Shown in pieces: positions 1,617 to 53,751 of a stretch of DNA of 64,000 bases (positions are counted from its first letter, which is position 1; every line of letters begins with the position of its first letter). Source of the DNA: Fusibacter sp. A1 (GTDB lineage Bacteria; Bacillota; Clostridia; Peptostreptococcales; Acidaminobacteraceae); assembly GCF_004125825.1 (NCBI RefSeq), contig NZ_QQWI01000005.1, positions 304,414 through 368,413 of the forward strand, in the 5' to 3' direction. The notes under the pieces are model-generated. The model did no database searches. It saw only the letters and a list, made by a program, of their open reading frames with translations, and was not told the origin of the DNA. Both the position numbers and the translations under genes were made by a program.

Positions 1617-4241
1617 TTAAACCAATGTAGGCAATAGTGCGAGTGCATCTTTCAATTTAGAAGCATCTTTTCCACCTGCTTGCGCCATGTTAGGACGGCC
1701 GCCGCCGCCACCGCCACAAGCTTTTGCCAATTCTCTTACAATATTACCACAATGCGCACTATTTTTTACAGCGCTTTCATTGGCTTTTGCGATAAAGTTT
1801 ACTTTATCTCCTGTAACATTTGCGATGACAACAAGAACAGCCTCTTCCTTACTCGTCATTTGATCAGCGATGTTTCTGAGTACGTCTTGCTCTTGATCTT
1901 CAAATTCAACAACAATCACCTTCGTGCCATTGATGATCTGTGCATTCTTCTCGATATCTGAAAGACTTGCATTTGCTACAGCCTGCTTCATTTTTGTGAA
2001 TTCTCTAGTGAGTGTTTTGTTCTCGTCAACTAAAGCTACCGCTTTTTGTACTACGTCTTCTCTTTTGCTCTTAAGTGCAGTAACGGTATCATCAAGAATC
2101 GATTCCACTTGATTGAGGTAATGATAGACACCACGGCCTGTAATGGCTTCAATTCGCCTCACGCCAGCTGCGACACCAGCCTCTGAAGTGATTTTGAAAA
2201 GACCGATTTCTGAAGCATGTTTAAGGTGCGTACCACCGCAAAGTTCCATGCTATAATCGCCGATAGTGACCATACGGACAAGCTCACCGTACTTTTCACC
2301 AAAGAGAGCCATAGCTCCGCGTTTTTTCGCCTCTGCGATCGGCAGTTCCTCTACTGTGACAGGCATACCAAGGAATACTTTTTCATTGACGATTTGCTCC
2401 ACCTTTGACACTTCCTCAAAGCTCAGACCTTGGAAGTGGGTAAAGTCAAATCTTAGACGATCCACTTCAACTAGTGAACCAGCCTGTTCGATGTGTCCGC
2501 CAAGCACATCCTTAAGCGCCTGATGTAAAAGATGAGTCGCCGTATGGTTTCTAGCGATATCAAGTCGTTTGTCCTCACCGACCTCAGCAGAAATCATATC
2601 TCCTTTTTTCAGGCTACCTTCAATTAACGAAACGTGATGCAAGATCGTACCTGTTTTCGCCTTTTGAGTATCGGTAACCATAAGTTTTGCAGTAGTCGAA
2701 GTCAATACACCGGTGTCGCCCGATTGTCCACCGCTCTCAGCATAAAAAGGAGTACAATCAAGAACAACAAGCCCTTTTGTTTCGCCCGAAAGCTCATCAA
2801 CCAGCTGACCGTCTTTAAGGATTGCGATAACAGTAGCATCATATTGCGTCTTTTCATAACCTACAAACTCTGTAGCAAGTCCGACAAGCGCTTCTGTCGC
2901 ATCACCTGACCAACCTAAGGAATCCGAATCCCTGGAACTTCTAGCACGTTCCTTTTGAGCTTCCATTTCACTTTCAAAAGCTTTCTCGTCTACGCTAAGC
3001 TGATGTTCCTTAACAATTTCAAGCGTCAGGTCAAGCGGGAATCCGTAAGTGTCATATAATTTGAATGCGAGTTCGCCAGTCAATACATTTTTACCAGCAT
3101 CGATAGTATCTTTGATATAGCCTTCTAAAATGGTAAGCCCCTGATCAATCGTCTGTTCGAAGCGATCTTCTTCAATGGCAATCACTTTTTTAGTGTAATC
3201 CTGTCTTGCAATCAGCTCAGGATATGCTTCTCCGAACACTTCAATCACCGTATCAACCAGTTCAAATAAGAACGCGCCTTGTATACCAATCAGTCTACCG
3301 TGTCTTGCAGCACGTCTTAATAGCCTTCTAAGAACATAACCCCTGCCCTCGTTGTTAGGCATTACCCCATCGGTAACCAGGAAGGTCACCGCACGTATGT
3401 GGTCTGTGATGATTCTTATCGACGTATCCGTCTTATGATCGGCACCGTAAACTTTTCCGCTTCTTTGTGCGATCTGATTTCTAATATGCACCATGGTATC
3501 GATATCGAATATCGAGGTCACATCCTGCATCAGGCAAGCGATACGCTCAAGGCCCATGCCGGTATCGATGTTGGGATTCTTAAGAGGAGTCATCTCGCCT
3601 TTTTCGTCCTTTTCGAATTGAGTGAATACTAGGTTCCAAAACTCAACAAACCTGTCACAGTCACAACCTGGCTTGCAATCAGGGTCACCACAACCGTAAG
3701 CTTCGCCTCTGTCGTAATAGATTTCAGAACATGGACCGCATGGGCCTGTTCCTGTTCCGATTTCCCAGAAGTTATCTTCTTTTCCTAGTCTGACAATCCT
3801 ATCGGCGGGAACATTCTCTTGTTTCAACCAGATGTCATACGCTTCGTCGTCTTCAAGGTAAACCGTTACCCAAAGCTTATCAAGCGATAGTTCCAGTTCC
3901 TGCGTGATGAACTCCCAGCTGTATCGGATCGCTTCTTTTTTGAAGTAATCACCAAAAGCGAAGTTACCAAGCATCTCGAAGAATGACGCGTGTCTTGAAG
4001 TATGTCCTACATTGTCGATATCGTTCGTTCTGATACACTTTTGGCAAGTTGCCATGTTCTTGCTTGGCGGTTCTTGAACGCCGGTGAAAAAGTCTTTTAA
4101 AGGCACCATGCCGGCATTTATAAGCAGAAGCGTCTTATCCGATTGCGGTACTAGGGGGTAGGACGGTTGAACTAGATGTCCGTTTCTTTCAAAGTAATCT
4201 AAGAATCGTTTTCGTATTTCGTTTAGACTCATGGTTTTCAT
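1617..4241 (-). CDS. alaS: Alanine--tRNA ligase
   Basis: 874 aa. N-terminal class II aaRS catalytic core, editing domain, and C-terminal GGG-rich segment before the DHHA1-like end. Confidence 0.95.
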   Translation of the reverse strand: MKTMSLNEIRKRFLDYFERNGHLVQPSYPLVPQSDKTLLLINAGMVPLKDFFTGVQEPPSKNMATCQKCIRTNDIDNVGHTSRHASFFEMLGNFAFGDYFKKEAIRYSWEFITQELELSLDKLWVTVYLEDDEAYDIWLKQENVPADRIVRLGKEDNFWEIGTGTGPCGPCSEIYYDRGEAYGCGDPDCKPGCDCDRFVEFWNLVFTQFEKDEKGEMTPLKNPNIDTGMGLERIACLMQDVTSIFDIDTMVHIRNQIAQRSGKVYGADHKTDTSIRIITDHIRAVTFLVTDGVMPNNEGRGYVLRRLLRRAARHGRLIGIQGAFLFELVDTVIEVFGEAYPELIARQDYTKKVIAIEEDRFEQTIDQGLTILEGYIKDTIDAGKNVLTGELAFKLYDTYGFPLDLTLEIVKEHQLSVDEKAFESEMEAQKERARSSRDSDSLGWSGDATEALVGLATEFVGYEKTQYDATVIAILKDGQLVDELSGETKGLVVLDCTPFYAESGGQSGDTGVLTSTTAKLMVTDTQKAKTGTILHHVSLIEGSLKKGDMISAEVGEDKRLDIARNHTATHLLHQALKDVLGGHIEQAGSLVEVDRLRFDFTHFQGLSFEEVSKVEQIVNEKVFLGMPVTVEELPIAEAKKRGAMALFGEKYGELVRMVTIGDYSMELCGGTHLKHASEIGLFKITSEAGVAAGVRRIEAITGRGVYHYLNQVESILDDTVTALKSKREDVVQKAVALVDENKTLTREFTKMKQAVANASLSDIEKNAQIINGTKVIVVEFEDQEQDVLRNIADQMTSKEEAVLVVIANVTGDKVNFIAKANESAVKNSAHCGNIVRELAKACGGGGGGRPNMAQAGGKDASKLKDALALLPTLV

Positions 4242-4261: not shown

Positions 4262-4716
4262 GTGTTTTTTGTGGAGTTTTTGGGTTGTTTGTTTTTTTTG
4301 CTTGTTGCGTTTAGTTTGTGTGGTTAGTTAGTTACATTAAAATTTTGTGGCATCGTTATTACTGCTCCGGTCCGTCAATAAAAGACATTGACTTACACCG
4401 GTTACGAACAAAGTACGTTCGTAAATGACTTACACCGGTTACGAACAAAAAGCGTTCGTAAGCAAAAACAAAAAATACCCTCCAGTGACGTACTGACTTA
4501 GGGACGAGCAAATGCCCGCGGTACCACCCTAATTATCTGTGATCACTCAGAAGGTTCTAAACCTATCAATTTAACGCATTGCTACGGGTTTGGCTACAAA
4601 TCAGGTTCACCAATCCAGCTCGGAAGCTGCTTCTATCCTTTTGAAAGCTTTCAGCATGTTTCACTTTCTCTCTAGTGTTAAGGAATTCTCTCTTCGTCTT
4701 CGCTTTTTATTATTCA
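4262..4716 (-). promoter_or_regulatory. T-box riboswitch leader of alaS
   Basis: Minus strand contains the canonical T-box sequence AATTAGGGTGGTACCGCGGG (plus 4515-4534), followed by a U-run. C/A-rich spacer to the GGAG RBS. Confidence 0.65.
4393..4461 (-). repeat. Tandem duplicated ~34-nt hairpin module inside the alaS leader
   Basis: Two near-identical units GACTTACACCGGTTACGAACAAA(G/A)...GTTCGTAA. Each forms a TTACGAAC/GTTCGTAA stem. Confidence 0.5.
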
Positions 4717-41449: not shown

Positions 41450-44400
41450 TTAACTTTCATTCACAGCAACTTCGAATACGTCTTTGATCTTACATAAGCT
41501 ATCTCGAAGATCGCTCAGTACAACTACCGCTTGACCCATTTTATCATCACTTCCAGCCAATTTACTCTTTTGGTAGACTTGCTTGATCTCTGAATATCTG
41601 GCTGATTCATGTTCATTCATATGGCCTGTGATTTCTTTCCATTTCAGAAGGTTGGATTCAGCTCCAGTAGTCAGTGTTTGGCAATCATTTTCATAGCTTG
41701 CTATGATTTGTTCTGTCAACTCAGTATCATTCATCACAGATACGACGCGTTGAGCGATCTTGTTCATGTTTCTGTAAGACCCTTGAAGCTTAAACGGCGG
41801 CTCATTTCTGTATTCGTCAGACTGAGCTGCAGAATGGATATACTCCATATTGACTCTTAAAACAATGTCTCTGACATGACTTAACTTGGTAATCACTTGA
41901 GTGTACTCATTAAGTTCATCGGCCGTATAACTACTTTCCAATGTGATCGACTCCCTATCGACGCCGTTTGCCATCTGCACAAGACCGTATAAGTCAGACT
42001 GGCTTCGACTTGAAAGCTTTGATAAGACAGGGTTAGACGTCAAGCTGTTCTCAATGTAACTAAGCTTGAAGGCTTCCTCATTCTCACGTAGCATGTCCCC
42101 TAGGTTATAAACATCAGCCCTATTGGCAAGCATATCCGGTATTTTAAACTTGGCGCCACTTTCAGTATAAGGATTACCGGCCATGACAACCGCTATTTTC
42201 TTACCTCTCAAATCGTATGTCTGACCGACTCCATTGTAGACACCTTCAATCTTACGCTGCCCGTCGCAAAGGGAGATAAATTTTTGCAAGAACTCAGGGT
42301 CGCAGTGTTGAATATCATCAAGATACAACATCACATTGTTCCCCATTTTAAGCGCTAGATTCAACTTTCTCAGTTCTTCCTTGGCACTCGAATGTGAAGC
42401 CTTGTCAGGATCAAGCGAAGTGATTTCGTTTCCAAGGGAAGGACCATTGATCTTTACAAGAATTATGCCTAATCTGCTGGCGATATATTCCATCAGTGTC
42501 GTCTTACCATAACCAGGCGGCGATACTAAAAGTAGTAATCCCATAAGATCCGTTCGCTTATCATCACCCACTACACCCATTTGCTTAGCAAGATTCTCTC
42601 CTACTAAGGGTAGATACACCTTGTCGATCAGTCTATTTCTGACAAACGATGTCAGCACATTGGGTTTAAAGTCGTCAAGACGAAGTACCTCTTTGAAGTT
42701 TTTGATCAACTCACTTTTAAGTGCGTTGAACTTCAGATAATCATCTACCACTTCTTCGCTGAATAAACGCATTTTTGACATGAACTTTGTATAGCTAAGT
42801 TCGTAAGTTCCATCTGCGATTACGCCGTGCGAGCCTACAAGACCTTCAATAACCGTTTTAGTCGGTACTTGTATGACACCGCTCATGTTCACATCTTCTT
42901 CAAGGAGCAGAACGACCACTTCGTTCAATATGCCTGGCCAATCCTCAGCCTCAATATCCATAGGTGTCTTAAGGCTAGCCGTCTGCTCGTTCCAGTATGC
43001 CAAGACCCATTCCTTAACTAGGAAGAATTGTCCTTCCAGATCGGCTTTACTTGCCTTTAAAGACGCTTCAAAGCTTTCCAGCGCATGATTATCTCTAATA
43101 AACGCTTTAAATCCATCATAGACTTGTTTTGCTTCTAGACTTATCACAAAGGATGTCCCTTGCATTAACTCCTTGCACAAGTATTCCGATGAGGCTTCGA
43201 TACTCACCTTGTCATAAAAACCAAGGGTGTCAAACGCCTTTTCCAGGTTTTCTACAACTAAGGGAAGATAGTTATCCAGACTTGGCGCTGATTTGAAAAA
43301 TGTGCCTACTTTAGTCAAGTGATTCAACCGCGTACTTAACAACGTCTTCGTCTGCTCATCTACAAGACGACTCCAGAATAACCTCGCCATTGATCTTACA
43401 TCGCTTTGATAAGTCAACAGGTTGATATGGTGATGAAGATGAAGTAGCGCGCTTAATATCTTTGTCGCATCCTCATCATGCACCCCTTTTGTATACCCTT
43501 CCTGATACCTTGTCTCCATAAACGTCCTGACACGGTCTAAAAGTTGTGAATCCGACATATCGTATAACGTCTGTAAACTTTCAATTTGTAGATTCCTTGA
43601 TGCTTCAAAAGCAGTATATGCCAGATACTCTCCCCTATAGACATCAGCATTTTCAGAAACGAGTGTCTGTTCAAATACATGCTGATACCCGCTCAATTCA
43701 CGGTGGACCACCCTATCCCAAAAATCAGTTCCTGTGATGTGGTAGTAAAGCTGATTATCCTTTTGAACAATGGATAGGTCAATCGCCTTTCTGTTCACAG
43801 AAAAATGATGGTTGCCAAATTTGATGACATCCTGTCCATTCAGGTAGAGGTCTTGCTTGTCTTTCAACTGACGTATGGCATTTTCTTTGAGTGATTTGAG
43901 CTTGGCACTTACTTCATCCGCTTTGACGCTGTCTCCAAGTGACCTTAGTTCAGAAATGATATCTCTGACTTTTTCGGCCATGATATCAGATGCAAGATAA
44001 CCGTTGATCATTTCAATCGTATCAAGGCCCATCAAACGATTTTGAATACCACCGATGATACGCTGTGAAGAATCGAAAAGTGCGACCAACCGCTTATTAA
44101 GCTTATCTAGTAGCGTCTGCTTTCTCGATTCGAATGCGCTGTAGATCTCTTCTCTTTTTTCATCAAGCTTTATAAGATACTCTTCAAACTCAGAAAACTT
44201 ACCTTCAAGCTCCTGAAGCTGTACCATCACCTTATTCAGGTAATTGTCACACTTGTCTTCTGTATCAGCTATTTCAAGATAGTTCAAAACAGCCTGACCA
44301 AGCAGCTTCATTTGAGCGTTAAACTGAATCGTCATCTCGGTTTTTGTGAAGGTTTCGATTCTGACTTTCAGTTTGGCTTTCGCATTATTCATCAAGGAGA

Positions 44401-46336
44401 AGAGAGCAGAAATCTTTTCGATAAGTTCTGTTGTCACTGTCGGGTCTTCGATTTTAAAATTGCTTACTATTTCCATCAACAACTCTAAATCGGTGGACGT
44501 CTTGTCCATTTTTACAGCAAGTTCATTTCCCTCTAGCGACTTTTCGACCGATTCGATCGAACTATGCAACTCATCTACAACCATCTCATACGGCTTCAGG
44601 CCGTCTGGGCTTACGATGAACGCGACACATTTTTCAGAAAATGCGTCATTTTTTTCTTTGACGCGATCCTCTAATTTCTGAACCACGTCAAGGTCTGTAT
44701 ACATCAGATCTCTCAACGAGACTATTTCACCGCGTATGTTTCTGATTTCGCCAAGTACATCGACGTATTCATTGATGTTCTCAAAGGTTCCATATTCAAT
44801 CTTTTTAAGCAGCTCCTCCGTTGTCTTTCCAACTAGTTCGATTTGCTTCTTTGCTACTTCCTTCATTCGAATGACTTTTTCGAATTCTCCAATTGCAAAA
44901 GTGGATGTCTCTTTGATCTCCTTAAGCACCTGAGCAAGATTGAAAGCCTCATCCTTATCCACCCAAAAGTAGGAATCCAAAATGTTTTGAGTTTCCTTTA
45001 CAATATCAAGGTACACGCTTTGATAGCTGTCCCCCTTTTGTACAAGTTTTCCGACACCTCTGCAGGCCGCTATACAGTCAACGACATCCTTATTGCCTAT
45101 CTTGTAGAGTACCGAATCCCTATTCCCCTGAGCAACATGATTCTTGCCGACATAAGGTGTCTGCCATACTTGAAGTGAATGGTTTTTTCTGGGTTCATTC
45201 TCATGTCTGAATACGATCATCTCACCACTATTAAAATGTGAATAGCCACTACAGACGATAGGCATTTCTATTGTCTGCTCAATCATATTATACGAGTACA
45301 TCAGATAGGTACCGCTATCCATATTATAAAAGATATACTGATAGTCCTCGCCGTTTGTAGAACTGATAATCTGATCAAACACCGCATTTTCTAGGGGCAC
45401 GTCAAAGAGCTTATATTCCCCACTTCTCAAGTAATACCCTTGAGGAAAGATCAAGCCATGTCCTCCTGGCAAAAGCTTGCACGTATGTTCCATTGAATCA
45501 ACTCGAACCACATTCTTCAACTTGTTGTTGAAGACAAAGTAACGGTAGGCTTTTTCCTTATAGGGAAGAATCTTAAGCAGGATCAGCTGATCCAAGTCCA
45601 CATAGTAGATCTCGGCATCGTCAAGGTTTTGGTCCTTATCCTCAACAACCTCAGAATAGATACCTTTTCCCGTTTCGGTATTGTCCTCAACCTTAATCGT
45701 AAGGTCTCCACCTATAGTTTCGACAAATACCTTATCCAGAATGGAAACATGGGGGTGGATACCTGTTCTTTGCTGGTCTCTTGTCGCCCTCTGAAAGTCG
45801 AAATCATTGCCTAGGTTGAACTTTACTTCGTGCTCGCTTCTGTTATCGACATAAATCAAACGACGACCTTCGATCAGCCACTTGAACACTTTAATATCCG
45901 TCGCAGCTTTTCCGGTCTGAAAGACCATGTAAAAGTAAGGTTCAGAGATTGTGAACTTGGCAAAGAAGGTGTTCTTGTAGTACTGATACAGATCATCAAA
46001 ATCCTTTTTGAAAAGGTCATCGTTGATCAGTTCGAGGGATTCCTTTATGAATCCCTCTTCACCATACTTGTAAATTGAGAAAACATCCTCAAGTTCAACC
46101 TTTTGCTTCAAGCCGATATGAACGTTGTATCCAAAAAGGAAGCAATCGTCCACAGGTGCCATATCACGAGGGATGCAGTTGTTCTCTGTAAGAATCCTCT
46201 CACTGGCAAGTAGTTTTGTATCAACGGACCCAAAAACATCTTTTCTAGTAGCATTCAATTTCTCCGCTCTTGTTTTTAAGTCGACACCTTGTTTTTCCAG
46301 ACGACTCTTAATTACCTCATAAGTCCCTGAATCCAT
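41450..46336 (-). CDS. Giant (≈1630 aa) uncharacterised AAA_5-type ATPase
   Basis: Start at the ATG 1 nt after the flotillin stop, with a TTGGAG RBS. N-terminal ~450 aa beta-rich, ~750 aa helical/coiled-coil, then Walker A SPPGYGKTT, Walker B VMLYLDDIQH and sensor VVMAGNPY near residues 1250-1420. Function unknown, although the ORF itself is near-certain. Confidence 0.5.
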   Translation of the reverse strand: MDSGTYEVIKSRLEKQGVDLKTRAEKLNATRKDVFGSVDTKLLASERILTENNCIPRDMAPVDDCFLFGYNVHIGLKQKVELEDVFSIYKYGEEGFIKESLELINDDLFKKDFDDLYQYYKNTFFAKFTISEPYFYMVFQTGKAATDIKVFKWLIEGRRLIYVDNRSEHEVKFNLGNDFDFQRATRDQQRTGIHPHVSILDKVFVETIGGDLTIKVEDNTETGKGIYSEVVEDKDQNLDDAEIYYVDLDQLILLKILPYKEKAYRYFVFNNKLKNVVRVDSMEHTCKLLPGGHGLIFPQGYYLRSGEYKLFDVPLENAVFDQIISSTNGEDYQYIFYNMDSGTYLMYSYNMIEQTIEMPIVCSGYSHFNSGEMIVFRHENEPRKNHSLQVWQTPYVGKNHVAQGNRDSVLYKIGNKDVVDCIAACRGVGKLVQKGDSYQSVYLDIVKETQNILDSYFWVDKDEAFNLAQVLKEIKETSTFAIGEFEKVIRMKEVAKKQIELVGKTTEELLKKIEYGTFENINEYVDVLGEIRNIRGEIVSLRDLMYTDLDVVQKLEDRVKEKNDAFSEKCVAFIVSPDGLKPYEMVVDELHSSIESVEKSLEGNELAVKMDKTSTDLELLMEIVSNFKIEDPTVTTELIEKISALFSLMNNAKAKLKVRIETFTKTEMTIQFNAQMKLLGQAVLNYLEIADTEDKCDNYLNKVMVQLQELEGKFSEFEEYLIKLDEKREEIYSAFESRKQTLLDKLNKRLVALFDSSQRIIGGIQNRLMGLDTIEMINGYLASDIMAEKVRDIISELRSLGDSVKADEVSAKLKSLKENAIRQLKDKQDLYLNGQDVIKFGNHHFSVNRKAIDLSIVQKDNQLYYHITGTDFWDRVVHRELSGYQHVFEQTLVSENADVYRGEYLAYTAFEASRNLQIESLQTLYDMSDSQLLDRVRTFMETRYQEGYTKGVHDEDATKILSALLHLHHHINLLTYQSDVRSMARLFWSRLVDEQTKTLLSTRLNHLTKVGTFFKSAPSLDNYLPLVVENLEKAFDTLGFYDKVSIEASSEYLCKELMQGTSFVISLEAKQVYDGFKAFIRDNHALESFEASLKASKADLEGQFFLVKEWVLAYWNEQTASLKTPMDIEAEDWPGILNEVVVLLLEEDVNMSGVIQVPTKTVIEGLVGSHGVIADGTYELSYTKFMSKMRLFSEEVVDDYLKFNALKSELIKNFKEVLRLDDFKPNVLTSFVRNRLIDKVYLPLVGENLAKQMGVVGDDKRTDLMGLLLLVSPPGYGKTTLMEYIASRLGIILVKINGPSLGNEITSLDPDKASHSSAKEELRKLNLALKMGNNVMLYLDDIQHCDPEFLQKFISLCDGQRKIEGVYNGVGQTYDLRGKKIAVVMAGNPYTESGAKFKIPDMLANRADVYNLGDMLRENEEAFKLSYIENSLTSNPVLSKLSSRSQSDLYGLVQMANGVDRESITLESSYTADELNEYTQVITKLSHVRDIVLRVNMEYIHSAAQSDEYRNEPPFKLQGSYRNMNKIAQRVVSVMNDTELTEQIIASYENDCQTLTTGAESNLLKWKEITGHMNEHESARYSEIKQVYQKSKLAGSDDKMGQAVVVLSDLRDSLCKIKDVFEVAVNES

Positions 46337-46337
46337 A

Positions 46338-48362
46338 TTATGCTCCAATTACATTTTCAATTAGATTGGCTGGTAGATTTGCAACACCCGCCTTGTTTAC
46401 AGTATCAAGTAGCTTAGTCAACATCGCATGGTCGTTTCCTTCTGCAGTCTTCATCATTTTTCCTATAGCACCCGAAATGGTGATGTTCATCAGGTCTTGA
46501 GAAGATAAGTTGAATCTTCCTACCATCGTTTTAAGCTGCTGCTGGAAGTAGTCCGCGTCTCCTGTGATGAGGGTCTCTTTGATATCCTTTAGCACTTCAC
46601 TGTTGTTTACAACACGGTCAACCGCCTTACCTTGCGCGATCGAACCGATAATTTTGTCAAAGAACATCGTTTCTCCACCGACAATATCGATCTTAGCTGA
46701 TTTAAGCGCTTCTCTGATAACAGACGCTTGAGCATCTGCAATATCCTTTTGAATGGTGATTTGAGCAAGTTCGATCTGTTTTTCCTTATCAAGCTTGAGT
46801 TTGAACTCTTCATGATCTCTGCCTACAGCATCAAGTAATTTCATGCTATTGGCCTTTTCCTTGATACCTTCAGCTTCTGAAAGGTACATTCTCTTAAGGT
46901 TTGCAGCTTCGACAGTACCGTCTTTCTCTTTTACTTCTACTTTGGCGGTTTCGCCTTTGGCTTCTGCAAGTGCTTTCGCTTCAATCACTTTCGATGCGGC
47001 AATACCTTCGACAGAACCTTCCAGCACTCTGGCATCAACAATCACCTTGATCGCTTCCGCTTCTTTATGAGCGGCTTTCAGATTTGCATCTGCGTCGATA
47101 ATTGTCTTTTCGGCTTCTTTTTCAGCAGCCATCTTGGCGGCTTCCGCACCTTTAACAACAAGAATTTGCTTTGTTTCCGCCTCTTCTTCTGCTTTTCTGA
47201 GCGCTACATTTTTTGTACGGTTTGCATCCGCAAGCGCACGCGTGTCTTTGATTTTTTCTTCTTCCACCACGGTATCTTTTTCGACAGTCACTCTTTCTCT
47301 AATTACCGTCTGTATATTCTTCTTCTCAACTTCTACTAGCTTTTCCTTATCGATGATAGCAAGCTCGACAAGCTTTTCCTTTTCAGTTCTCTCAAGCAGT
47401 CTTTTTCTTTCTACACGTTCAGTTTCGATGGCTTCTGTGCTTTCCTTGGACTTTGCCGCAATGATGATCTGTCTTTGCTTGTTCTCCTCGGCTACACCAA
47501 TCTCTTCTTCTGTCTTCACTCTGGCAAGCTCAGACTTATAGCGTTCTTCTTGAGCGACCTTTTCAGCTTCGGCGATTTCACGTGAATTGATGATCGAAAT
47601 CTCTCTAAGCTGTTTGGCTTCGGCTTCGGCGTTTTGCTTTTCAAGTTCTAAAATAGCTTCTCTTGCCGATACGTCTTGTCGCTTGATTGTCTTTTCGCGT
47701 TCTCTTTCAATCTCGTTGGCCAATATTCTTTGAGTTGAAGTCAGTTCTGTGATCTTCTTGATCCCCTCAGAATCCAAAATGTTGTCAGGATTCAACAAGC
47801 GAATGTCGGTTTGCTCCAGATAATCGATCGCGGCATCATCCAACACATAACCGTTTAAGTCCGTGCCGATGATCTGCAGGATTTCACTCTTAAAAGTCTC
47901 ACGGTCCGTATATAACTGAACAAAATCAAACTTTTTGCCTACAGTCTTAAGCGCTTCAGAGAATTTTGCATCAAAGAAGGCCATTAGGGTTTCCGGATCG
48001 GATGCTTTTTGACAACCCAGCAGCTGTGCGACTTTTAAAACGTCATCTGTCGTCTGATTGACACGAACGAAGAATGCGACACGGATATCCGCCCTTAAGT
48101 TGTCTTTACAGATCAAGCCGTCCTTGCCTTCTCTAGCGATTTCGACACGTTTGATCGAAATATCCATCTCCTCTTTGCGGTGGATGATGGGTACTACCAT
48201 GATGCCGCCAAAGCAGACAACCTGATTGCCGATACCGTTTCTAATGATTACCTTCGACTGCTCCACCTTGTGATAGAAACTGGCAAATAAGGCCAGTAGT
48301 CCAACCACAATGACGATTGATGCTCCTACCGTGACAAGGGTTCCTTGTAATAAAACATTCAT
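46338..48362 (-). CDS. floT: Flotillin-family (SPFH/band-7, FloT/YqiK-like) protein
   Basis: N-terminal TM + SPFH domain, then a long EA/K-rich coiled-coil. Start at MNVLLQG with GGAGGAA RBS, not the longer ORF start at 48377. Confidence 0.85.
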   Translation of the reverse strand: MNVLLQGTLVTVGASIVIVVGLLALFASFYHKVEQSKVIIRNGIGNQVVCFGGIMVVPIIHRKEEMDISIKRVEIAREGKDGLICKDNLRADIRVAFFVRVNQTTDDVLKVAQLLGCQKASDPETLMAFFDAKFSEALKTVGKKFDFVQLYTDRETFKSEILQIIGTDLNGYVLDDAAIDYLEQTDIRLLNPDNILDSEGIKKITELTSTQRILANEIEREREKTIKRQDVSAREAILELEKQNAEAEAKQLREISIINSREIAEAEKVAQEERYKSELARVKTEEEIGVAEENKQRQIIIAAKSKESTEAIETERVERKRLLERTEKEKLVELAIIDKEKLVEVEKKNIQTVIRERVTVEKDTVVEEEKIKDTRALADANRTKNVALRKAEEEAETKQILVVKGAEAAKMAAEKEAEKTIIDADANLKAAHKEAEAIKVIVDARVLEGSVEGIAASKVIEAKALAEAKGETAKVEVKEKDGTVEAANLKRMYLSEAEGIKEKANSMKLLDAVGRDHEEFKLKLDKEKQIELAQITIQKDIADAQASVIREALKSAKIDIVGGETMFFDKIIGSIAQGKAVDRVVNNSEVLKDIKETLITGDADYFQQQLKTMVGRFNLSSQDLMNITISGAIGKMMKTAEGNDHAMLTKLLDTVNKAGVANLPANLIENVIGA

Positions 48363-48380
48363 ATAGTATTCCTCCATAAG

Positions 48381-49082
48381 TTAAATAGTGTTGCCATCGT
48401 TCATCAGTGGTGTGGTGATAAAGTACACATCGTCCACCTTATCCTTGCTAAATACAAATACGGTCTCACCTTTTTTATAAACAAGATGTTTGTCGGCTGT
48501 GGTGACATTAATGACAATCGATACTCCGTCCTGCATGATCTCTGCCTGTCCGAGCCGTCCATATTCCACATCGCTTTTCAAAGTGCATCTTTTGTAAAGC
48601 ACCCTATGGGCAATGTCTTCCTCATTTTTCCTTTCAAAAAAAAGCTTTCTTATCGGAATAAGCTCAAGTTTCGTTATGTAAAGGCTCAAAAAAAATGCCG
48701 GTATCAAAAGCACCGCGCTGATCAGACCGCCCGCTTGAATCGGAAGGACATACAAGAGCATGCTTGATATCCAGAAGTTCAGAAAAATCATACTGAGTAC
48801 CAGGGCGAATGGGATATCACCGCTGTTAACAAGCACCGCGATACCGCTAAGCGGTCCTGACGCATCAGCACCTTCCACATCGAGATCGACATCAAACAAA
48901 TCAAAATCCAGAAAGCCTGTGATAGCCACCAACCAATATAGCTGCATCAAAATCAGCAGTGCGGTAGGTATGACATTTATTCCTGTAAAAGCAAATCTTA
49001 TTAATTCCGTAACAATCACCTCCATCGTACAATCATCGTAAGAACAGGTAACGACTAGGCCTAGAGTATCAGGCTTTAGCAT
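48381..49082 (-). CDS. NfeD-like (YuaF/YqiJ-type) membrane protein
   Basis: Multi-TM N-terminus, C-terminal OB-like soluble domain. Immediately upstream of flotillin as in yuaF-floT and yqiJ-yqiK. Confidence 0.6.
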   Translation of the reverse strand: MLKPDTLGLVVTCSYDDCTMEVIVTELIRFAFTGINVIPTALLILMQLYWLVAITGFLDFDLFDVDLDVEGADASGPLSGIAVLVNSGDIPFALVLSMIFLNFWISSMLLYVLPIQAGGLISAVLLIPAFFLSLYITKLELIPIRKLFFERKNEEDIAHRVLYKRCTLKSDVEYGRLGQAEIMQDGVSIVINVTTADKHLVYKKGETVFVFSKDKVDDVYFITTPLMNDGNTI

Positions 49083-50321: not shown

Positions 50322-50356
50322 AAAACCAGGCTGCAGTTTAGCAGCCTGATTTTTTC
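50322..50356. terminator. Bidirectional terminator
   Basis: CCAGGCTGC-AGTTTA-GCAGCCTG flanked by A/T runs. Confidence 0.5.
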
Positions 50357-52106
50357 AGATTACTTGCATTTGATCATTTAGTCCAGATAAATACGTCTTC
50401 CACATCTTACTGAAGTGCCTATCATTCGCATGAAGCTCATCAAGCGTGCCTGATTCAACGATTTGCCCTTGATCCATTACGATAATCAGATCAAACATTT
50501 CAAGTAGGTGCAGTTGATGAATCGGCGTGATGATCGTACGATCCTTGAACTCATTGAGAATCTGACTGAAGATCATTTTTTCATTCAACGCATCGACACT
50601 GCTGCTGATCTCGTCAAGCAAGAGCATTGATTTATGCCTGGCAAAGAACAAGGCTCTTGCAAGTGCTAAGCGTTGTTTTTAACCACCAGACAAATTGACG
50701 CCTTTCTCCCTGATATCGGTATCAAGTCCCTTTGGGAATCCTTTCAACACTTCTGAAAATCTTGATATGACGAGTATTTTTTCCATATACTTCTCATCGT
50801 AGTCCATACCGAATGTGATATTATACCGAATTGTATTTTCAAAAATTTCGATATCCTGAGGCGCCAGCAGACTCATTTGATTGATGCAGTGAAAGTCATT
50901 GATTTTGATGCCGTCAATGATAAGGTCTCCATTACTTGGAGTATGAAACCCTGCAAGCAAATGAATCAGCGTGCTTTTTCCAGATCCGCTACTTCCGATT
51001 ATCGCCACTTTACTTCCAGTACGGAGATCCAGGTTGATGTTGCGAAGCGTACTCTCCTGATTATCATAGCTGAAGTGAAGATTCCTATTTGCAATGTGCT
51101 CCCATGACTCTACTTCTACTGAAACGCTCTTAGCAGTTAATTCGTCGGAAGTTGTGACAATCTGCGAAACTGATTGTAGTGAAGTTTTCCAATCCATCGT
51201 ATCGTAGAAGGTATTTGTAATGTCAAAAAATGATGTGCTCATGGTTTTAAAGTAATTGACAATGGCGATCAGCGATCCAATGATGATCACTCCACCCGCT
51301 TCGCTAGCCGACCACAAGAAAAACAAAATGAGAACAAGTTCTGTTATGAAAGTCCCGGATGCGCTTATGAAGCAGCGCGGTTGGTTTATTTTGAATTCCC
51401 GCATTCTTTCGTGAACATAATGATTGAACTTGTGATTCAGAACCTCATTGGTCTCCTCTTTTAAATGCAGGTTGATCACAGTACGAATGTTGACGATAAA
51501 ATCGAACAACTTAGCAGTATAAGCATGAGTCTCTTCGTTGATACTGTGTAGTATCGGTTGAATAAGCAAATTCATTTTGGTAACTACAACTAAGTTGACC
51601 AGAGTCAAACCGATACATATCATCGAATACTTCCACGAGTAGTTGATGAGTATGAACACCGGTCCGACCGATAATAAAAGATTTCCAAGCATTTCGTGCT
51701 GCATGAACCCATAATCCCTAAGTGAAAAGCTGGCAGTATTGATTCGATTGACAAGCTCTCCAGAATGATTGTTGGTATGCCATTGTATTGGCAAGGAATA
51801 CACTCTACCATACATGTCATCTACAAAGTTCTTTTGCATCGTATATGCCACGGTTAATTCAAAATATCTTGCAGTATGATGAAAAACTTGAAAAGCCAGA
51901 AATCCTACCAGATACATGGACAGCCAAAATAGCGTTGGTCGAATATTTCCAATTCCATTTACTTGCAGCAAGTTGATCGCTTTACCAAATGAATAGGGCT
52001 GAAAAAGAACCCCTGCAAAAGACAAGCTGTGTAAAAAGTATAAAAGAACAATCTTCCAACGTTCTTTTTCCGCATAAATCCATGCTGTTTTAAAAAGATA
52101 TAACAT
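50355..52106 (-). pseudogene. Fused TMD-NBD ABC exporter interrupted by an in-frame TAA in the LSGGQ signature
   Basis: Walker A GSSGSGKST and signature LSGG, then TAA (50679-50681) where Gln is expected. Downstream in-frame KQRLALARALF...LLLDEISSSVD (Walker B). Confidence 0.6.
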
Positions 52107-52410
52107 AGTTCCCTCCTAATTATCCGATTGATTGAAAATTACAGCAAACAGATAAGATAGGCGGCGGTCTAGCTACATAGGGTCAACGTCAATGTTTTGT
52201 AAACTTAGCTTTCATAGTATTTCCTCCTTTGATTAATTACAAATATTGTAACATAACTCATCTGATCCACCAATAATATTTCACTTGATTAATCTTTCAT
52301 CACTTTCCTATGTTTATAAATTACGTATCACGAAATATTATGTTGTTTTATTTTACTTATTGGTTTAGAGTATATTAGAGTATATTTGTGAAAATGCAAC
52401 GGAGGCGTTT

Positions 52411-53751
52411 ATGAATAAAGCACGAATCATTTTATTAAAAAGCATTTTAATCATCGCAGCACCTGCGATTATAGAAATGAGTCTAAATACGATGTTGATG
52501 GTCGCCGATACCATCATGGTTGGTCAGTTGATCGACAAGCAGGCATTATCAGCCGTAGGAATAGCAAACTCCATCATGTTTACCATGATCTTTGTGTTTT
52601 CCTCTTTCAACACAGGAGCAATCGCCATGATTTCAAGGAGTTTTGGCGAAAAGAACATGCCAAAGGCAAAGGATGTGGCACAAACAAATTTAGCGCTTAA
52701 TCTTATCATTGGTATAGCAGTGGCACTTTTGGCGTTTTTATTGAAACCAATTCTTTTTATGCCCTATCAGATCGAACCACTAGTTACATCGCATCTGCAT
52801 ATCTACTATGACATTGTCGTCGCCGGCATGCTCTTTCAGTTCTTGTCCTTTGCCTTCGCGTCCATCTCAAGAGGTGTGGGAGATACGAAAACACCAATGT
52901 ACATTACGGGCTTTGCGGTTGTCACCAACATCATTTTAAACTACGTGCTCATCGCAGGATGGTCTGTGTTTCCTGAAATGGGCATCGCAGGTGCGGCGCT
53001 TGCCACGACGATCGCAAGGATCATGAGTTTTTCGATTTATGTTTTCATCATTTTCGGCGGCAGACATAAACTGAGTTTGTCACTAAAAAACATTCATCTA
53101 AATCGCAGCATCTTAAAACCACTATGGAAGATTTCATACCCAGGAGCGGTAGAACAGTTTCTGATGCAAACGGCATTTTTAGTCCTTGGCATCATCATCA
53201 CCACATTAAGCACAGATTCAGAAGCGCTTTTTAGAATTTTATTAAATATCGAATCGACTAGTTTTATGCCCGCGGTCGGTATTTCCATCGCAGCAGCCAC
53301 ACTTGTCGGTCAATCTTTAGGCGAAAAAGACCCAGACAAAGCGTATGAGATCGGACTACTCTCCGGTTACATTAGCGTGATGTGGGGTGTTATCATCGGC
53401 ATCATCTTCTTCGTCTTCCCAAAGAGCATCTTGGGCCTGTTCACACCAGACCAGGTGATCATTCAAATGGGCATAGTCGTAATGATGGTCTTCGCGTTCA
53501 ACCAACCGCTTCTAAACTTCAATATTGCCATGTCAGGCGCGTTAAGAGGTGCTGGAGATACAAGTATCGTGATGCGTTTGACCTCGATGAGGCTATGGCT
53601 GATCTTCATACCAGGCACCTACCTTTGCGTCATGGTCTTAAAAACAGGCGTAGTCGGTCTTTGGTACGCAGAAATTCTATCATTTTTGCTCTTTAGCTTC
53701 ATCATGCTTAAGCGCTTTAAAAGTAGAAAATGGGCTTATATCGAGCTTTAA
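52411..53751 (+). CDS. MATE-family efflux transporter
   Basis: 446 aa, 12 TM. LIIAAPAIIEMSLNTMLMVADTIMVGQL. Confidence 0.85.
   Translation: MNKARIILLKSILIIAAPAIIEMSLNTMLMVADTIMVGQLIDKQALSAVGIANSIMFTMIFVFSSFNTGAIAMISRSFGEKNMPKAKDVAQTNLALNLIIGIAVALLAFLLKPILFMPYQIEPLVTSHLHIYYDIVVAGMLFQFLSFAFASISRGVGDTKTPMYITGFAVVTNIILNYVLIAGWSVFPEMGIAGAALATTIARIMSFSIYVFIIFGGRHKLSLSLKNIHLNRSILKPLWKISYPGAVEQFLMQTAFLVLGIIITTLSTDSEALFRILLNIESTSFMPAVGISIAAATLVGQSLGEKDPDKAYEIGLLSGYISVMWGVIIGIIFFVFPKSILGLFTPDQVIIQMGIVVMMVFAFNQPLLNFNIAMSGALRGAGDTSIVMRLTSMRLWLIFIPGTYLCVMVLKTGVVGLWYAEILSFLLFSFIMLKRFKSRKWAYIEL

What the first reader, a model, noticed from the sequence alone, without database searches (positions are those of the whole stretch)
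50355..52106. ABC exporter with a single in-frame TAA replacing Gln in the LSGGQ signature
The reading frame runs uninterrupted through TMD, Walker A and LSGG. It then hits TAA (50679-50681) exactly at the signature Gln codon (CAA to TAA is one transition) and continues in-frame through KQRLALARALF and Walker B LLLDEISSSVD. Either this is a very recent nonsense mutation inactivating a drug/peptide exporter, a sequencing error, or a stop that is read through. An 8-codon uORF (MKAKFTKH, 52189-52215) with a perfect AAAGGAGG RBS sits ~80 nt upstream of the exporter, hinting at leader-peptide control.
Basis: seen in the sequence. Interest (0 to 1): 0.5.

Follow-up and report, generated by a model that had tools for sequence, protein, structure and literature searches.

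The report
Dead ABC exporter with conserved leader
A Fusibacter drug-pump-like ABC exporter gene has been knocked out by one genuine stop codon, which is ordinary, but the tiny 8-codon reading frame in front of it belongs to a conserved, apparently undescribed regulatory leader shared by related clostridial exporters.

Summary
A single in-frame TAA (50679-50681, minus strand) follows LSGG in an otherwise intact 583-codon ABC_membrane+ABC_tran gene (52106->50355). The window is Fusibacter. The same truncated 475-aa product is deposited under three GenBank accessions as 'MULTISPECIES, unclassified Fusibacter', and one assembly matches the window exactly over 13.4 kb. A random read error is therefore unlikely. 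The lost residue was probably Glu, not Gln: 33 of 37 nearest homologues carry LSGGE, and the sister locus uses GAA, so GAA->TAA is the likely change. TAA ends 19 of 42 long ORFs in the window. No homologue has a stop at this position, no stimulatory structure follows it, and no SD lies downstream. The best reading is a recent fixed nonsense mutation giving a pseudogene; the post-stop segment shows no significant decay. The uORF hint is strongly supported. Nine of ten homologue loci (42-61% protein identity) have an 8-codon uORF (consensus MKKx[F/L]NKL), a stop-NN-TTGAC box and a CCUCC anti-SD 45-51 nt downstream that pairs with the exporter's SD. Hairpin halves pair best with their own partner (0 of 20,000 permutations did as well). 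Rfam has no match. The window's leader carries a 27-nt deletion. How the uORF communicates with the hairpin is unresolved.

The parts
52245..52273 (-). Putative sigma-A promoter of the leader transcript: TTGGTG (52273-52268), a 17-nt spacer, then the extended -10 TGTTACAAT (52253-52245)
   Evidence: Read from the sequence. Inferred only: the consensus scan did not list it, because the -35 matches only 3 of 6 positions.
52223..52230 (-). Shine-Dalgarno AAAGGAGG of the uORF, 7 nt before its ATG
   Evidence: A strong SD occupies the equivalent position in most homologue leaders, with weaker variants in some.
52189..52215 (-). 8-codon leader ORF MKAKFTKH plus its TGA stop
   Evidence: Nine of ten homologue loci have an ORF of exactly 8 codons here: MKKEFNNN, MKKEFDQL, (TTG)KKKLNKL, MKKLFNKL, MKKRLNKL, MKKVLNKL, MKRLFEKL and MRGKLDGL.
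52182..52191 (-). Conserved stop-NN-TTGAC box (TGA CG TTGAC); function unexplained
   Evidence: Present in 10 of 10 homologue loci, including the GC-rich 38%-identity locus L096. TGACGTTGACCC is identical between the window and L003.
52179..52180 (-). Junction of a 27-nt deletion relative to all other leaders; it removes the 5' arm of the middle hairpin
   Evidence: The distance from uORF stop to anti-SD is 21 nt here and 45-51 nt in nine other loci. MAFFT places a clean 27-column gap in the window only.
52160..52167 (-). Anti-SD box CCGCCGCC (CCUCC-type in the homologues)
52098..52178 (-). Predicted hairpin that sequesters the exporter's SD and start codon
   Evidence: Present in the minimum-free-energy fold of the window and of eight homologue leaders. 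Cognate versus non-cognate duplex test: -18.9 versus -13.5 kcal/mol, and 0 of 20,000 permutations did as well.
52112..52117 (-). Shine-Dalgarno AGGAGG of the exporter gene
50682..52106 (-). 5' part of the exporter gene (475 codons): six-helix ABC_membrane domain and the NBD through Walker A, the Q-loop and LSGG. Annotated at NCBI as WP_129487950.1
50679..50681 (-). Premature TAA at the fifth position of the ABC signature motif (Glu in 33 of 37 homologues, Gln in 4)
50355..50678 (-). 3' part of the exporter frame (107 codons plus TGA): KQRLALARA, Walker B LLLDE, D-loop, H-loop His530 and the C-terminus. NCBI annotates a 90-aa or 98-aa fragment here (WP_129487949.1 / NPE22036.1)
50322..50353 (-). 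Intrinsic terminator directly after the full-length frame
   Evidence: 13-pair stem, 6 of the pairs G-C, followed by a T-run.

Best explanation
The locus was a leader-controlled ABCB-type half-transporter (a homodimeric exporter of unknown substrate) that has been inactivated in this Fusibacter lineage by one real nonsense substitution, most likely GAA (Glu) to TAA, at the fifth position of the signature motif. Translation stops after LSGG. The 475-residue product keeps the membrane domain, Walker A and the Q-loop but lacks Walker B with its catalytic Glu, the D-loop and the H-loop. By established ABC enzymology it therefore cannot hydrolyse ATP, and the gene is a pseudogene that NCBI annotates as two CDSs. 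The event is recent relative to the family's divergence, because the 107 codons after the stop are still open and still carry the motifs. Upstream, the 8-codon uORF is not a chance ORF. It is the sensor ORF of a conserved 5' leader in which a CCUCC box pairs with the exporter's SD and holds translation off. The inferred logic is ribosome-dependent translational attenuation: an event on the efficiently translated uORF, probably drug-induced stalling or impaired termination, remodels the leader and exposes the SD. In the window this leader has also lost 27 nt. Shown here: the stop, its presence in several deposits, LSGGE as the family state, conservation of the uORF, box and spacing, and the locus-specific SD hairpin. 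Inferred: loss of function, the direction of the mutation, and the whole inducer and stalling mechanism.
For: Stop codon: it is in the sequence. The identical 475-aa product has accessions MCK8058960, NPE22037 and RXV61601 under WP_129487950 'MULTISPECIES [unclassified Fusibacter]'. Contig JALNQL010000002.1 matches the window exactly over 13,428 nt. Strain A1 is the separate accession JABKBY, and taxonomy lists sp. A1 and sp. A2. All other listed homologues are about 570-630 aa apart from one 515-aa entry. The signature column holds 33 Glu and 4 Gln. Codons there are GAA in five loci including the sister locus, GAG in three and CAA in one. The terminator follows the full-length frame. This is the only gene in the window split by a lone stop with homology continuing on both sides, and TAA ends 19 of 42 long ORFs. 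No structure or SD follows the stop. Departures from >=90%-conserved residues are 10/110 before the stop and 5/37 after it, p=0.53. Leader: 9 of 10 homologue loci chosen without regard to the leader have an 8-codon uORF, and 10 of 10 have the stop-NN-TTGAY box. Synonymous variation within the uORF (TTT/TTC, CTT/TTA, AAT/AAC, TTG/TTA) points to selection on the peptide. The stop-to-anti-SD distance is 45-51 nt. The SD is paired in every minimum-free-energy fold, with P(unpaired) 0.00-0.38. Cognate hairpin halves pair 5.5 kcal/mol better than non-cognate ones, permutation p about 5e-5. None of 79 distant relatives has the leader. Of 27 uORF-pattern matches in metagenomes, only the one true homologue has the exporter downstream.
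Against: I could not see raw reads or the DNA of the other two deposits, so independence rests on accession records and differing contig lengths. A1 and A2 may be near-clonal siblings, so the stop could still be young. There is no close intact allele (the nearest full-length homologue is 61% identical), so the ancestral codon comes from parsimony only. For the leader, masking the uORF through stop+12 nt to mimic a stalled ribosome does not open the SD hairpin in the thermodynamic model. No alternative anti-anti-SD pairing was found consistently. The conserved TTGAC box is unexplained. Only ten loci were available. The window's own leader folds no better than shuffled sequence (z = +0.24).
Confidence: 0.78

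Rival explanations
1. Sequencing or assembly error: the real codon is GAA or CAA and the exporter is intact.
For: Only a single base is involved. I could not inspect reads. The post-stop frame is undecayed, which would also be expected if the gene were intact.
Against: The identical truncation is deposited under three GenBank protein accessions, from assemblies with different contig structures and apparently from two named isolates. One assembly matches the window exactly over 13.4 kb. The site is not a homopolymer error hotspot of the kind that causes indels, and the change is a substitution. No other gene in the 64-kb window shows a comparable defect.
Confidence: 0.06
2. Programmed read-through or suppression: the TAA is decoded at a useful rate and a full-length exporter is made, possibly as a regulatory device.
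For: The downstream frame and all its motifs are intact, and the terminator follows the full-length frame.
Against: UAA is read by both release factors and is the least leaky bacterial stop (established knowledge). TAA is the ordinary terminator of 19 of 42 long ORFs in the window. No homologue has a stop at this position, so nothing is conserved as a recoding site. The region after the stop folds no better than shuffles (z = -1.3 and -0.2). The window contains no tRNA gene.
Confidence: 0.03
3. Split gene: the 475-aa N-terminal piece and a separately translated C-terminal piece (from ATG 50627 or TTG 50651) reassemble into a working nucleotide-binding domain.
For: NCBI annotates the downstream piece as its own CDS of 90 or 98 aa. 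An ATG sits directly at Walker B (MLLLDE).
Against: No GGAGG lies anywhere between 50241 and 12 on the minus strand upstream of 52112, and only weak AG-rich stretches precede either candidate start. The split would cut the NBD between the signature helix and the Walker B strand. No homologue is split this way.
Confidence: 0.04
4. Rival for the leader only: the uORF is not a stalling sensor. The SD hairpin is a constitutive translational damper or thermosensor, and the conserved TTGAC box is a DNA operator or a restart codon, so control is protein-mediated or works by termination-reinitiation rather than drug-induced stalling.
For: Masking the uORF does not open the SD hairpin. The box is conserved at nucleotide level even where the uORF is not (L096). 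In the +2 frame the box reads TTG/ATG followed by Thr/Ile codons with synonymous third-position changes, as a start codon would.
Against: The uORF's length (exactly 8 codons), its SD and its peptide are conserved with synonymous changes. No consistent -10 element follows the TTGAC box (my reading). No regulator gene is conserved next to the exporter. The putative second ORF ends at inconsistent positions.
Confidence: 0.2

Closest known systems
Unitary pseudogene created by a single nonsense substitution in a bacterial accessory gene
   Same: There is one premature stop, the rest of the frame is intact, essential catalytic motifs lie downstream of the stop, and automated annotation splits the gene into two CDSs.
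   Different: Nothing unusual. The only notable point is that the stop falls exactly on the fifth signature residue, which looked designed but is not conserved in any homologue.
ABCB-type (type IV fold) bacterial half-transporters such as MsbA, BmrA and HepA-family exporters
   Same: It has an ABC_membrane plus ABC_tran architecture of about 580 aa, with Walker A, Q-loop, signature, Walker B and H-loop. The best NCBIfam and PDB matches are of this class.
   Different: No NCBIfam model reaches its curated cut-off (best is HepA_fam at 235 bits against 725). The subfamily signature is LSGGE rather than LSGGQ. The substrate is unknown. This copy is truncated.
BmrB leader peptide controlling the BmrCD ABC exporter of Bacillus subtilis (PMC4191407)
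   Same: A translated upstream ORF acts as a ribosome-based sensor controlling a membrane ABC multidrug-type exporter in a Firmicute.
   Different: BmrB is 53 aa and works by transcriptional attenuation through an intrinsic terminator inside bmrB. Here the ORF has 8 codons, no terminator is found in the leader, and the controlled element is an SD-sequestering hairpin.
uORF plus anti-SD leaders of ARE-ABCF genes (cplR MR[I/M], vmlR MIN, VmlR2 MK[L/Q], lsaA MAGN; PMC10201436), and cat/erm-type translational attenuators
   Same: A short conserved uORF with its own SD sits upstream of a hairpin that sequesters the main gene's SD, and these occur in Clostridia and Bacilli.
   Different: Those uORFs have 3-4 codons, the SD hairpin doubles as a poly-U terminator, and the regulated proteins are cytoplasmic ribosome-protection factors. 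Here there are 8 codons with a distinct consensus (MKKx[F/L]NKL), a fixed spacer of about 48 nt, an extra TTGAC box, no poly-U, and a membrane exporter.
toiL uORF of E. coli topAI-yjhQ (PMC12121999)
   Same: A short sensory uORF is combined with a structure that occludes the RBS of the downstream gene.
   Different: In toiL the uORF sequence itself base-pairs with the RBS, so stalling anywhere in it opens the RBS. Here the anti-SD lies 45-51 nt downstream of the uORF, and masking the uORF does not open the hairpin in silico.

Membership tests
ABC exporter, ABCB-type half-transporter (functional member) | N-terminal six-helix ABC_membrane domain fused to an ABC_tran NBD | tested here: met
   PF00664 1.8e-12 (residues 29-292) and PF00005 1.9e-23 (residues 354-500) on the repaired frame.
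ABC exporter, ABCB-type half-transporter (functional member) | Complete signature motif LSGG[Q/E] | tested here: not met
   LSGG is followed by TAA. Homologues have E (33) or Q (4) at this position.
ABC exporter, ABCB-type half-transporter (functional member) | Walker B with catalytic Glu, D-loop and H-loop on the same polypeptide as Walker A | tested here: not met
   LLLDE (residues 495-499) and His530 lie after the stop. The encoded product ends at residue 475.
ABC exporter, ABCB-type half-transporter (functional member) | Membership of a named, curated equivalog family (MsbA, HepA, CydCD, etc.) | tested here: not met
   All NCBIfam hits fall far below their curated cut-offs.
Pseudogene by nonsense mutation | Premature stop relative to full-length homologues, with homology continuing in frame beyond it | tested here: met
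Pseudogene by nonsense mutation | The lesion is real, i.e. reproducible in independent sequence data | tested here: inconclusive
Pseudogene by nonsense mutation | Relaxed selection downstream of the lesion | tested here: inconclusive
   Departures from conserved residues are 5/37 after the stop and 10/110 before it, Fisher p=0.53. The post-stop rate is the highest of the 38 sequences but not significant.
Programmed stop-codon read-through / recoding | Stop codon conserved at the site among homologues | tested here: not met
   None of the 37 nearest homologues has a stop there.
Programmed stop-codon read-through / recoding | Stimulatory RNA structure or reassigned codon usage | tested here: not met
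   Fold z-scores are -1.3 and -0.2. TAA ends 19 of 42 long ORFs.
Programmed stop-codon read-through / recoding | Cognate suppressor tRNA | not testable with these tools
   No tRNA gene in the window. The rest of the genome was not available.
uORF / leader-peptide translational attenuator (erm, cat, cplR kind) | Short uORF with its own SD in the 5' leader, conserved among orthologous loci | tested here: met
   The 8-codon ORF is in 9 of 10 loci and in 0 of 79 distant relatives.
uORF / leader-peptide translational attenuator (erm, cat, cplR kind) | The main gene's SD is sequestered by a conserved complementary segment | tested here: met
   Minimum-free-energy folds of 9 of 9 leaders. Cognate-specific complementarity has permutation p of about 5e-5.
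uORF / leader-peptide translational attenuator (erm, cat, cplR kind) | An alternative fold that frees the SD when a ribosome occupies the uORF | tested here: not met
   Masking the uORF through stop+12 leaves P(SD unpaired) unchanged in all nine leaders. This lowers 'works exactly like ermC', not 'is uORF-controlled'.
uORF / leader-peptide translational attenuator (erm, cat, cplR kind) | Inducer-dependent ribosome arrest on the uORF | not testable with these tools
   Needs toeprinting, reporters or ribosome profiling.
BmrB-type transcriptional attenuator | Intrinsic terminator within or after the leader ORF | tested here: not met
   The scan found no terminator in the window's leader. By my reading of the folds, no U-tract follows the hairpins of the homologue leaders.
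Any Rfam cis-regulatory family | Match to a curated covariance model | tested here: not met
   Only noise at E>5 for the window's leader. Nothing falls in the leader regions of eight homologue loci at E<=1.

The most novel reading that the evidence does not exclude
The 8-codon uORF (consensus M-K-K-x-[F/L]-N-K-L), the invariant stop-NN-TTGAY box, the fixed spacer of about 48 nt and the locus-specific anti-SD:SD hairpin together form an undescribed class of ribosome-sensing translational leader that controls a clostridial ABCB-type exporter subfamily. Its coupling mechanism may differ from erm, cat or toiL. One possibility is arrest at termination on a conserved ...KL-stop peptide. Another is termination-reinitiation at the TTG/ATG 2 nt after the stop. 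This is suggested because occupying the uORF does not open the hairpin in silico.
Probability: 0.4. Interest if true: 0.5.

Novelty: new member of a known kind. Interest (0 to 1): 0.3.

Why it matters
The stop codon itself matters little. It is one more accessory gene lost to a point mutation, plus an annotation fix: two CDSs, WP_129487950 and WP_129487949, should be a single pseudogene. It is also a reminder that LSGGE, not LSGGQ, is this subfamily's native signature. The leader matters more. Short sensory uORFs are how many Gram-positive bacteria switch on resistance genes, and each new conserved peptide is a candidate for a new context-specific ribosome-arrest rule and a clue to what the pump exports. 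A conserved 8-residue peptide with rigid spacing in front of an uncharacterised exporter family gives a directly testable reporter system. It could identify both the inducer and the substrate class of these pumps.

Tried and rejected
It was useless for close orthologues and served only as a negative control (0 of 79 have the leader). (2) The metagenome scan with the degenerate uORF+box pattern gave 27 matches, but only one (L123, the same contig as L093) was a true leader; the rest were AT-rich background. It did not enlarge the leader set. (3) A tblastn search of plasmids and a viral-contig scan found no close homologues. (4) I found no intact allele. The 5.8-billion-protein search found nothing between 61% and 100% identity other than the truncated product. 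(5) DNA of the A1 (JABKBY) assembly could not be retrieved, because the 98-aa fragment is not indexed. (6) An ermC-type switch was rejected as a sufficient model, since ribosome masking does not open the hairpin. (7) TTGAC as a -35 box was rejected because no consistent -10 follows at 16-18 nt in any locus. (8) A +1 frameshift or tandem-stop reading of the box was considered and can be neither supported nor excluded with ten sequences. (9) Column-based covariation on the MAFFT alignment was abandoned because the 3' halves vary too much in length; the cognate/non-cognate duplex test replaced it. (10) Horizontal transfer was not indicated: gene GC is 0.396 against 0.407 for the window.
Full report
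OBSERVATION. On the minus strand the window reads ...AAT TTG TCT GGT GGT TAA AAA CAA CGC TTA GCA CTT GCA AGA GCC..., that is NLSGG*KQRLALARA, with the TAA at 50681->50679. The frame from ATG 52106 to TGA 50357-50355 has 583 sense positions and this one internal stop. Mechanical ORF listing splits it into 475 aa (50679..52106) and 98 aa (50355..50651). With the stop repaired, Pfam finds ABC_membrane (residues 29-292) and ABC_tran (residues 354-500). Walker A GSSGSGKST (50970-50996) and Q417 precede the stop. Walker B MLLLDE (50610-50627) and H-loop His530 follow it. A strong intrinsic terminator (50353->50322) sits directly after the full-length frame.

WHERE THE WINDOW COMES FROM, AND WHETHER THE STOP IS REAL. 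The 475-aa product is in the public protein collection as WP_129487950.1, 'MULTISPECIES: ABC transporter ATP-binding protein [unclassified Fusibacter]', with GenBank accessions MCK8058960, NPE22037 (Fusibacter sp. A1) and RXV61601. The downstream fragment is annotated separately, as 90 aa (WP_129487949.1) or 98 aa (NPE22036.1). Contig JALNQL010000002.1 of GCA_023161605.1 (623 kb) is identical to the window over all 13,428 nt compared. The A1 fragment sits on a 368-kb contig, and A1's genome is the separate accession JABKBY. NCBI taxonomy lists both Fusibacter sp. A1 and sp. A2, which fits the MULTISPECIES label. So the TAA recurs in several deposits and, apparently, in two named isolates. I could not see reads or the DNA of the other assemblies, so a systematic artefact cannot be formally excluded, but a random error is very unlikely. 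No other gene in the 64 kb is interrupted by a lone stop with homology continuing on both sides. The other 'open | stop | open' cases are adjacent operon genes or antisense frames.

WHICH RESIDUE WAS LOST. In this subfamily the signature is LSGGE. Among the 37 nearest full-length homologues (39-61% identity) the column holds 33 Glu and 4 Gln. At the DNA level the sister locus (P0002, L003, 61%) uses GAA. Across nine loci the codon is GAA five times, GAG three times and CAA once. The window's GGTGGT-TAA-AAA-CAA lines up with L091's GGTGGT-GAA-AAA-CAG. Parsimony therefore favours GAA->TAA, a G->T transversion. LSGGE is a recognised natural variant of the motif in other ABC proteins (papers listed).

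READ-THROUGH, RECODING OR A SPLIT GENE? TAA is the commonest genuine terminator in the window (19 of 42 long ORFs), so it has not been reassigned. No homologue has a stop at this site, so there is nothing conserved that a recoding site would require. The RNA after the stop folds no better than shuffled sequence (z = -1.3 and -0.2). The window holds no tRNA gene. On the minus strand no GGAGG occurs between 50241 and 52112, and only weak AG-rich stretches precede the candidate restart codons TTG 50651 and ATG 50627. UAA is read by both release factors and is the least leaky bacterial stop (established knowledge). I rate read-through at about 3% and a functional split at about 4%.

HOW OLD IS THE LESION? 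The 107 post-stop codons contain no further stop or frameshift. My estimate of the chance of that is about 1e-3 at this base composition. Against columns that are at least 90% conserved in the 37 homologues, the window departs at 10 of 110 positions before the stop and at 5 of 37 after it (T501S, R531Q in the H-loop HRL, F555L, G563R, L568M), Fisher p = 0.53. Identity to the sister protein is 61% before the stop and 55% after it. The post-stop departure rate is the highest of all 38 sequences, but the sister protein also departs often before the stop. The result is therefore 'no demonstrable decay': the mutation is recent relative to family divergence, and it cannot be dated more finely without an intact close allele. 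None exists in 5.8 billion proteins; nothing lies between 61% and 100% identity.

WHAT THE PROTEIN WAS. It is an ABCB-type (type IV fold) half-transporter. The best PDB matches are P-glycoprotein/ABCB1-class chains. The best NCBIfam hits are HepA-family, MsbA and type-I-secretion or bacteriocin exporters, but all fall far below their curated cut-offs (235 bits against 725 for the best). It is an unnamed subfamily of unknown substrate. Gene neighbourhoods of the homologues are not syntenic, but they repeatedly include resistance-type genes: an APH-family kinase next to the gene in L091 and L092, GNAT acetyltransferases near L003, L093 and L096, an MFS gene fused downstream in L096, an ABC-F gene in L092, and a divergent MATE pump in the window. 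This suggests a drug or toxin export role but does not prove one.

THE uORF IS A CONSERVED LEADER. I fetched ten homologue loci by exact protein look-up, without knowing anything about their upstream DNA. Every one has, upstream of the exporter, a stop codon followed by NN-TTGAY. Nine have an ORF of exactly 8 codons ending at that stop and preceded by an SD: window MKAKFTKH, L003 MKKEFNNN, L088 MKKEFDQL, L090 (TTG)KKKLNKL, L091 MKKLFNKL, L092 MKKRLNKL, L093 MKKVLNKL, L094 MKRLFEKL, L095 MRGKLDGL. The GC-rich locus L096 (38% identity) keeps TTG-TGA-CG-TTGACC but has a different uORF. Synonymous variation (Phe TTT/TTC, Leu CTT/TTA, Asn AAT/AAC, Leu TTG/TTA) argues for selection on the peptide. 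A CCUCC-type box lies 45-51 nt after the uORF stop, at exactly 48 nt in five loci. In every minimum-free-energy fold it pairs with the exporter's GGAGG, while the inner stems differ completely in sequence. P(SD unpaired) is 0.00-0.38.

As a covariation-style test, I paired the 5' half of each hairpin with the 3' half of every locus. Cognate pairs average -18.9 kcal/mol and non-cognate pairs -13.5, and none of 20,000 permutations matched the cognate mean. The bare CCUCC:GGAGG core is worth only -7.0. None of 79 distant relatives (34% identity or less) has the leader. Of 27 matches to the degenerate uORF pattern in 241 million metagenome records, only the single true homologue is followed by this exporter. 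Rfam 15 has no match to the window's leader or to eight intact leaders. The scan found no intrinsic terminator in the window's leader, and I see none in the homologue folds, so control is most likely translational.

THE WINDOW'S LEADER IS ALSO DAMAGED. In the window the distance from uORF stop to anti-SD is 21 nt, not 45-51. The flanks TGACGTTGACCC and TAGCTAGACC are identical to L003, but the roughly 31 nt between them in L003 are replaced by 4 nt. MAFFT places a clean 27-column gap in the window only. The deletion removes the 5' arm of the middle hairpin that several other leaders form (GUCUAGC/GCUAGAC in L003). The window's leader is also the only one that folds no better than shuffles (z = +0.24, against -2.0 to -4.5 for the others). 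I cannot tell whether this preceded or followed the nonsense mutation, or whether it alters regulation.

MECHANISM AND ITS WEAK POINT. The architecture is that of uORF-dependent translational attenuation: a well-translated short uORF, then an anti-SD:SD hairpin. Precedents are erm and cat leaders, the uORF plus anti-SD leaders of ABC-F genes (cplR MR[I/M], vmlR MIN, VmlR2 MK[L/Q], lsaA MAGN; PMC10201436), toiL (PMC12121999) and, for a membrane ABC exporter, BmrB-BmrCD (PMC4191407). I therefore propose that arrest of a ribosome on the uORF exposes the exporter's SD. The arrest could be by a ribosome-targeting compound, or at termination on the conserved ...KL-stop peptide. This step is inferred and has a real gap. 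Forcing the uORF through stop+12 nt to be single-stranded leaves the SD hairpin untouched in all nine leaders. Unlike toiL, the uORF does not pair with the RBS. Unlike cplR and BmrB, there is no terminator.

The invariant NN-TTGAY box is unexplained. It can be read as a tandem in-frame stop (NNT-TGA in 10 of 10). It can also be read as a restart codon 2 nt after the stop (TTG, or ATG in L088, followed by Thr/Ile codons with synonymous third positions). Or it could be an RNA or DNA site. The second-ORF reading gives products of 2-22 codons that end at inconsistent places, and no -10 element follows the box. Ten sequences cannot decide between these readings.

COMPARISON AND NOVELTY. The stop codon is an ordinary unitary pseudogene and is already visible in public annotation as two adjacent CDSs. 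As an ABC exporter the locus fails the functional-membership tests, with an incomplete signature and with Walker B and the H-loop on a different reading segment, although its ancestry is clear. The leader belongs to the known kind 'sensory uORF plus SD sequestration'. It differs from every member I could find in four respects: uORF length and consensus, the rigid spacer, the extra box and the class of gene controlled. It is absent from Rfam. I call it a new member of a known kind, with about a 40% chance that it proves to be a mechanistically distinct, undescribed leader family.

VERDICT. Interest is 0.3, low for the stop codon and moderate for the conserved leader.

Noticed in passing
L097 6038-6071 (+); the same sequence occurs in L101, L109 and L114: Four metagenome contigs share ATG AAA AAA GGT TTG GAA TTC TTG TAA CT TTGAC (the box is identical to L095) about 118 nt upstream of a 469-aa MATE efflux gene (PF01554, 1.2e-46). 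The SD is badly spaced for this frame and no CCUCC:GGAGG pair follows. It is unclear whether this is a relative of the exporter leader serving a different pump family or a coincidence.
   Followed up: partly
window 50355-52106 (-) and public records WP_129487950.1 / WP_129487949.1: NCBI annotates the two halves of the interrupted gene as separate 'ABC transporter ATP-binding protein' CDSs (475 aa plus 90 or 98 aa) rather than as one pseudogene.
   Followed up: yes
window 52366-52385 (+): A perfect tandem repeat, TAGAGTATAT twice, lies 25-45 nt upstream of the divergent MATE gene (52411-53751). That gene has a plain GGAGG SD and no comparable uORF. The repeat could be an operator or promoter element.
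   Followed up: no
window 4497-4709 (-): A T-box leader (RF00230, 93.4 bits, just above the gathering score of 93) lies upstream of an alanyl-tRNA synthetase gene (1617-4241, tRNA-synt_2c 2.6e-202).
   Followed up: partly
L091 682-1638 and 5391-7731; L092 1937-2806 and 6970-7743; L093 3433-4227; L096 3255-4478: Homologue loci repeatedly carry resistance-type neighbours: APH-family kinases beside the exporter in two loci, GNAT acetyltransferases, an ABC-F gene, and an MFS gene overlapping the exporter's stop. L091 has a second paralogue of the exporter beyond a DDE transposase.
   Followed up: no
window 41450-49082 (-): Downstream of the dead exporter lies a conserved block also seen in the public contig: a 233-aa membrane protein and a 679-aa Glu/Lys-rich protein (neither has a Pfam match), followed by a 1632-aa DUF3686/DUF7902/AAA ATPase. 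Function is unknown. The starts and stops of the first two overlap or abut like an operon.
   Followed up: no
L096 1190-1260 (+): In the most distant leader-bearing homologue (38% identity, GC-rich) the 8-codon uORF is replaced by either ATG-TTG-TGA or a 15-codon ORF that starts right at a TATAAT. The TTGTGACGTTGACC box is still identical to the window's, and the leader is about 240 nt long. So the box outlasts the uORF in evolution.
   Followed up: partly
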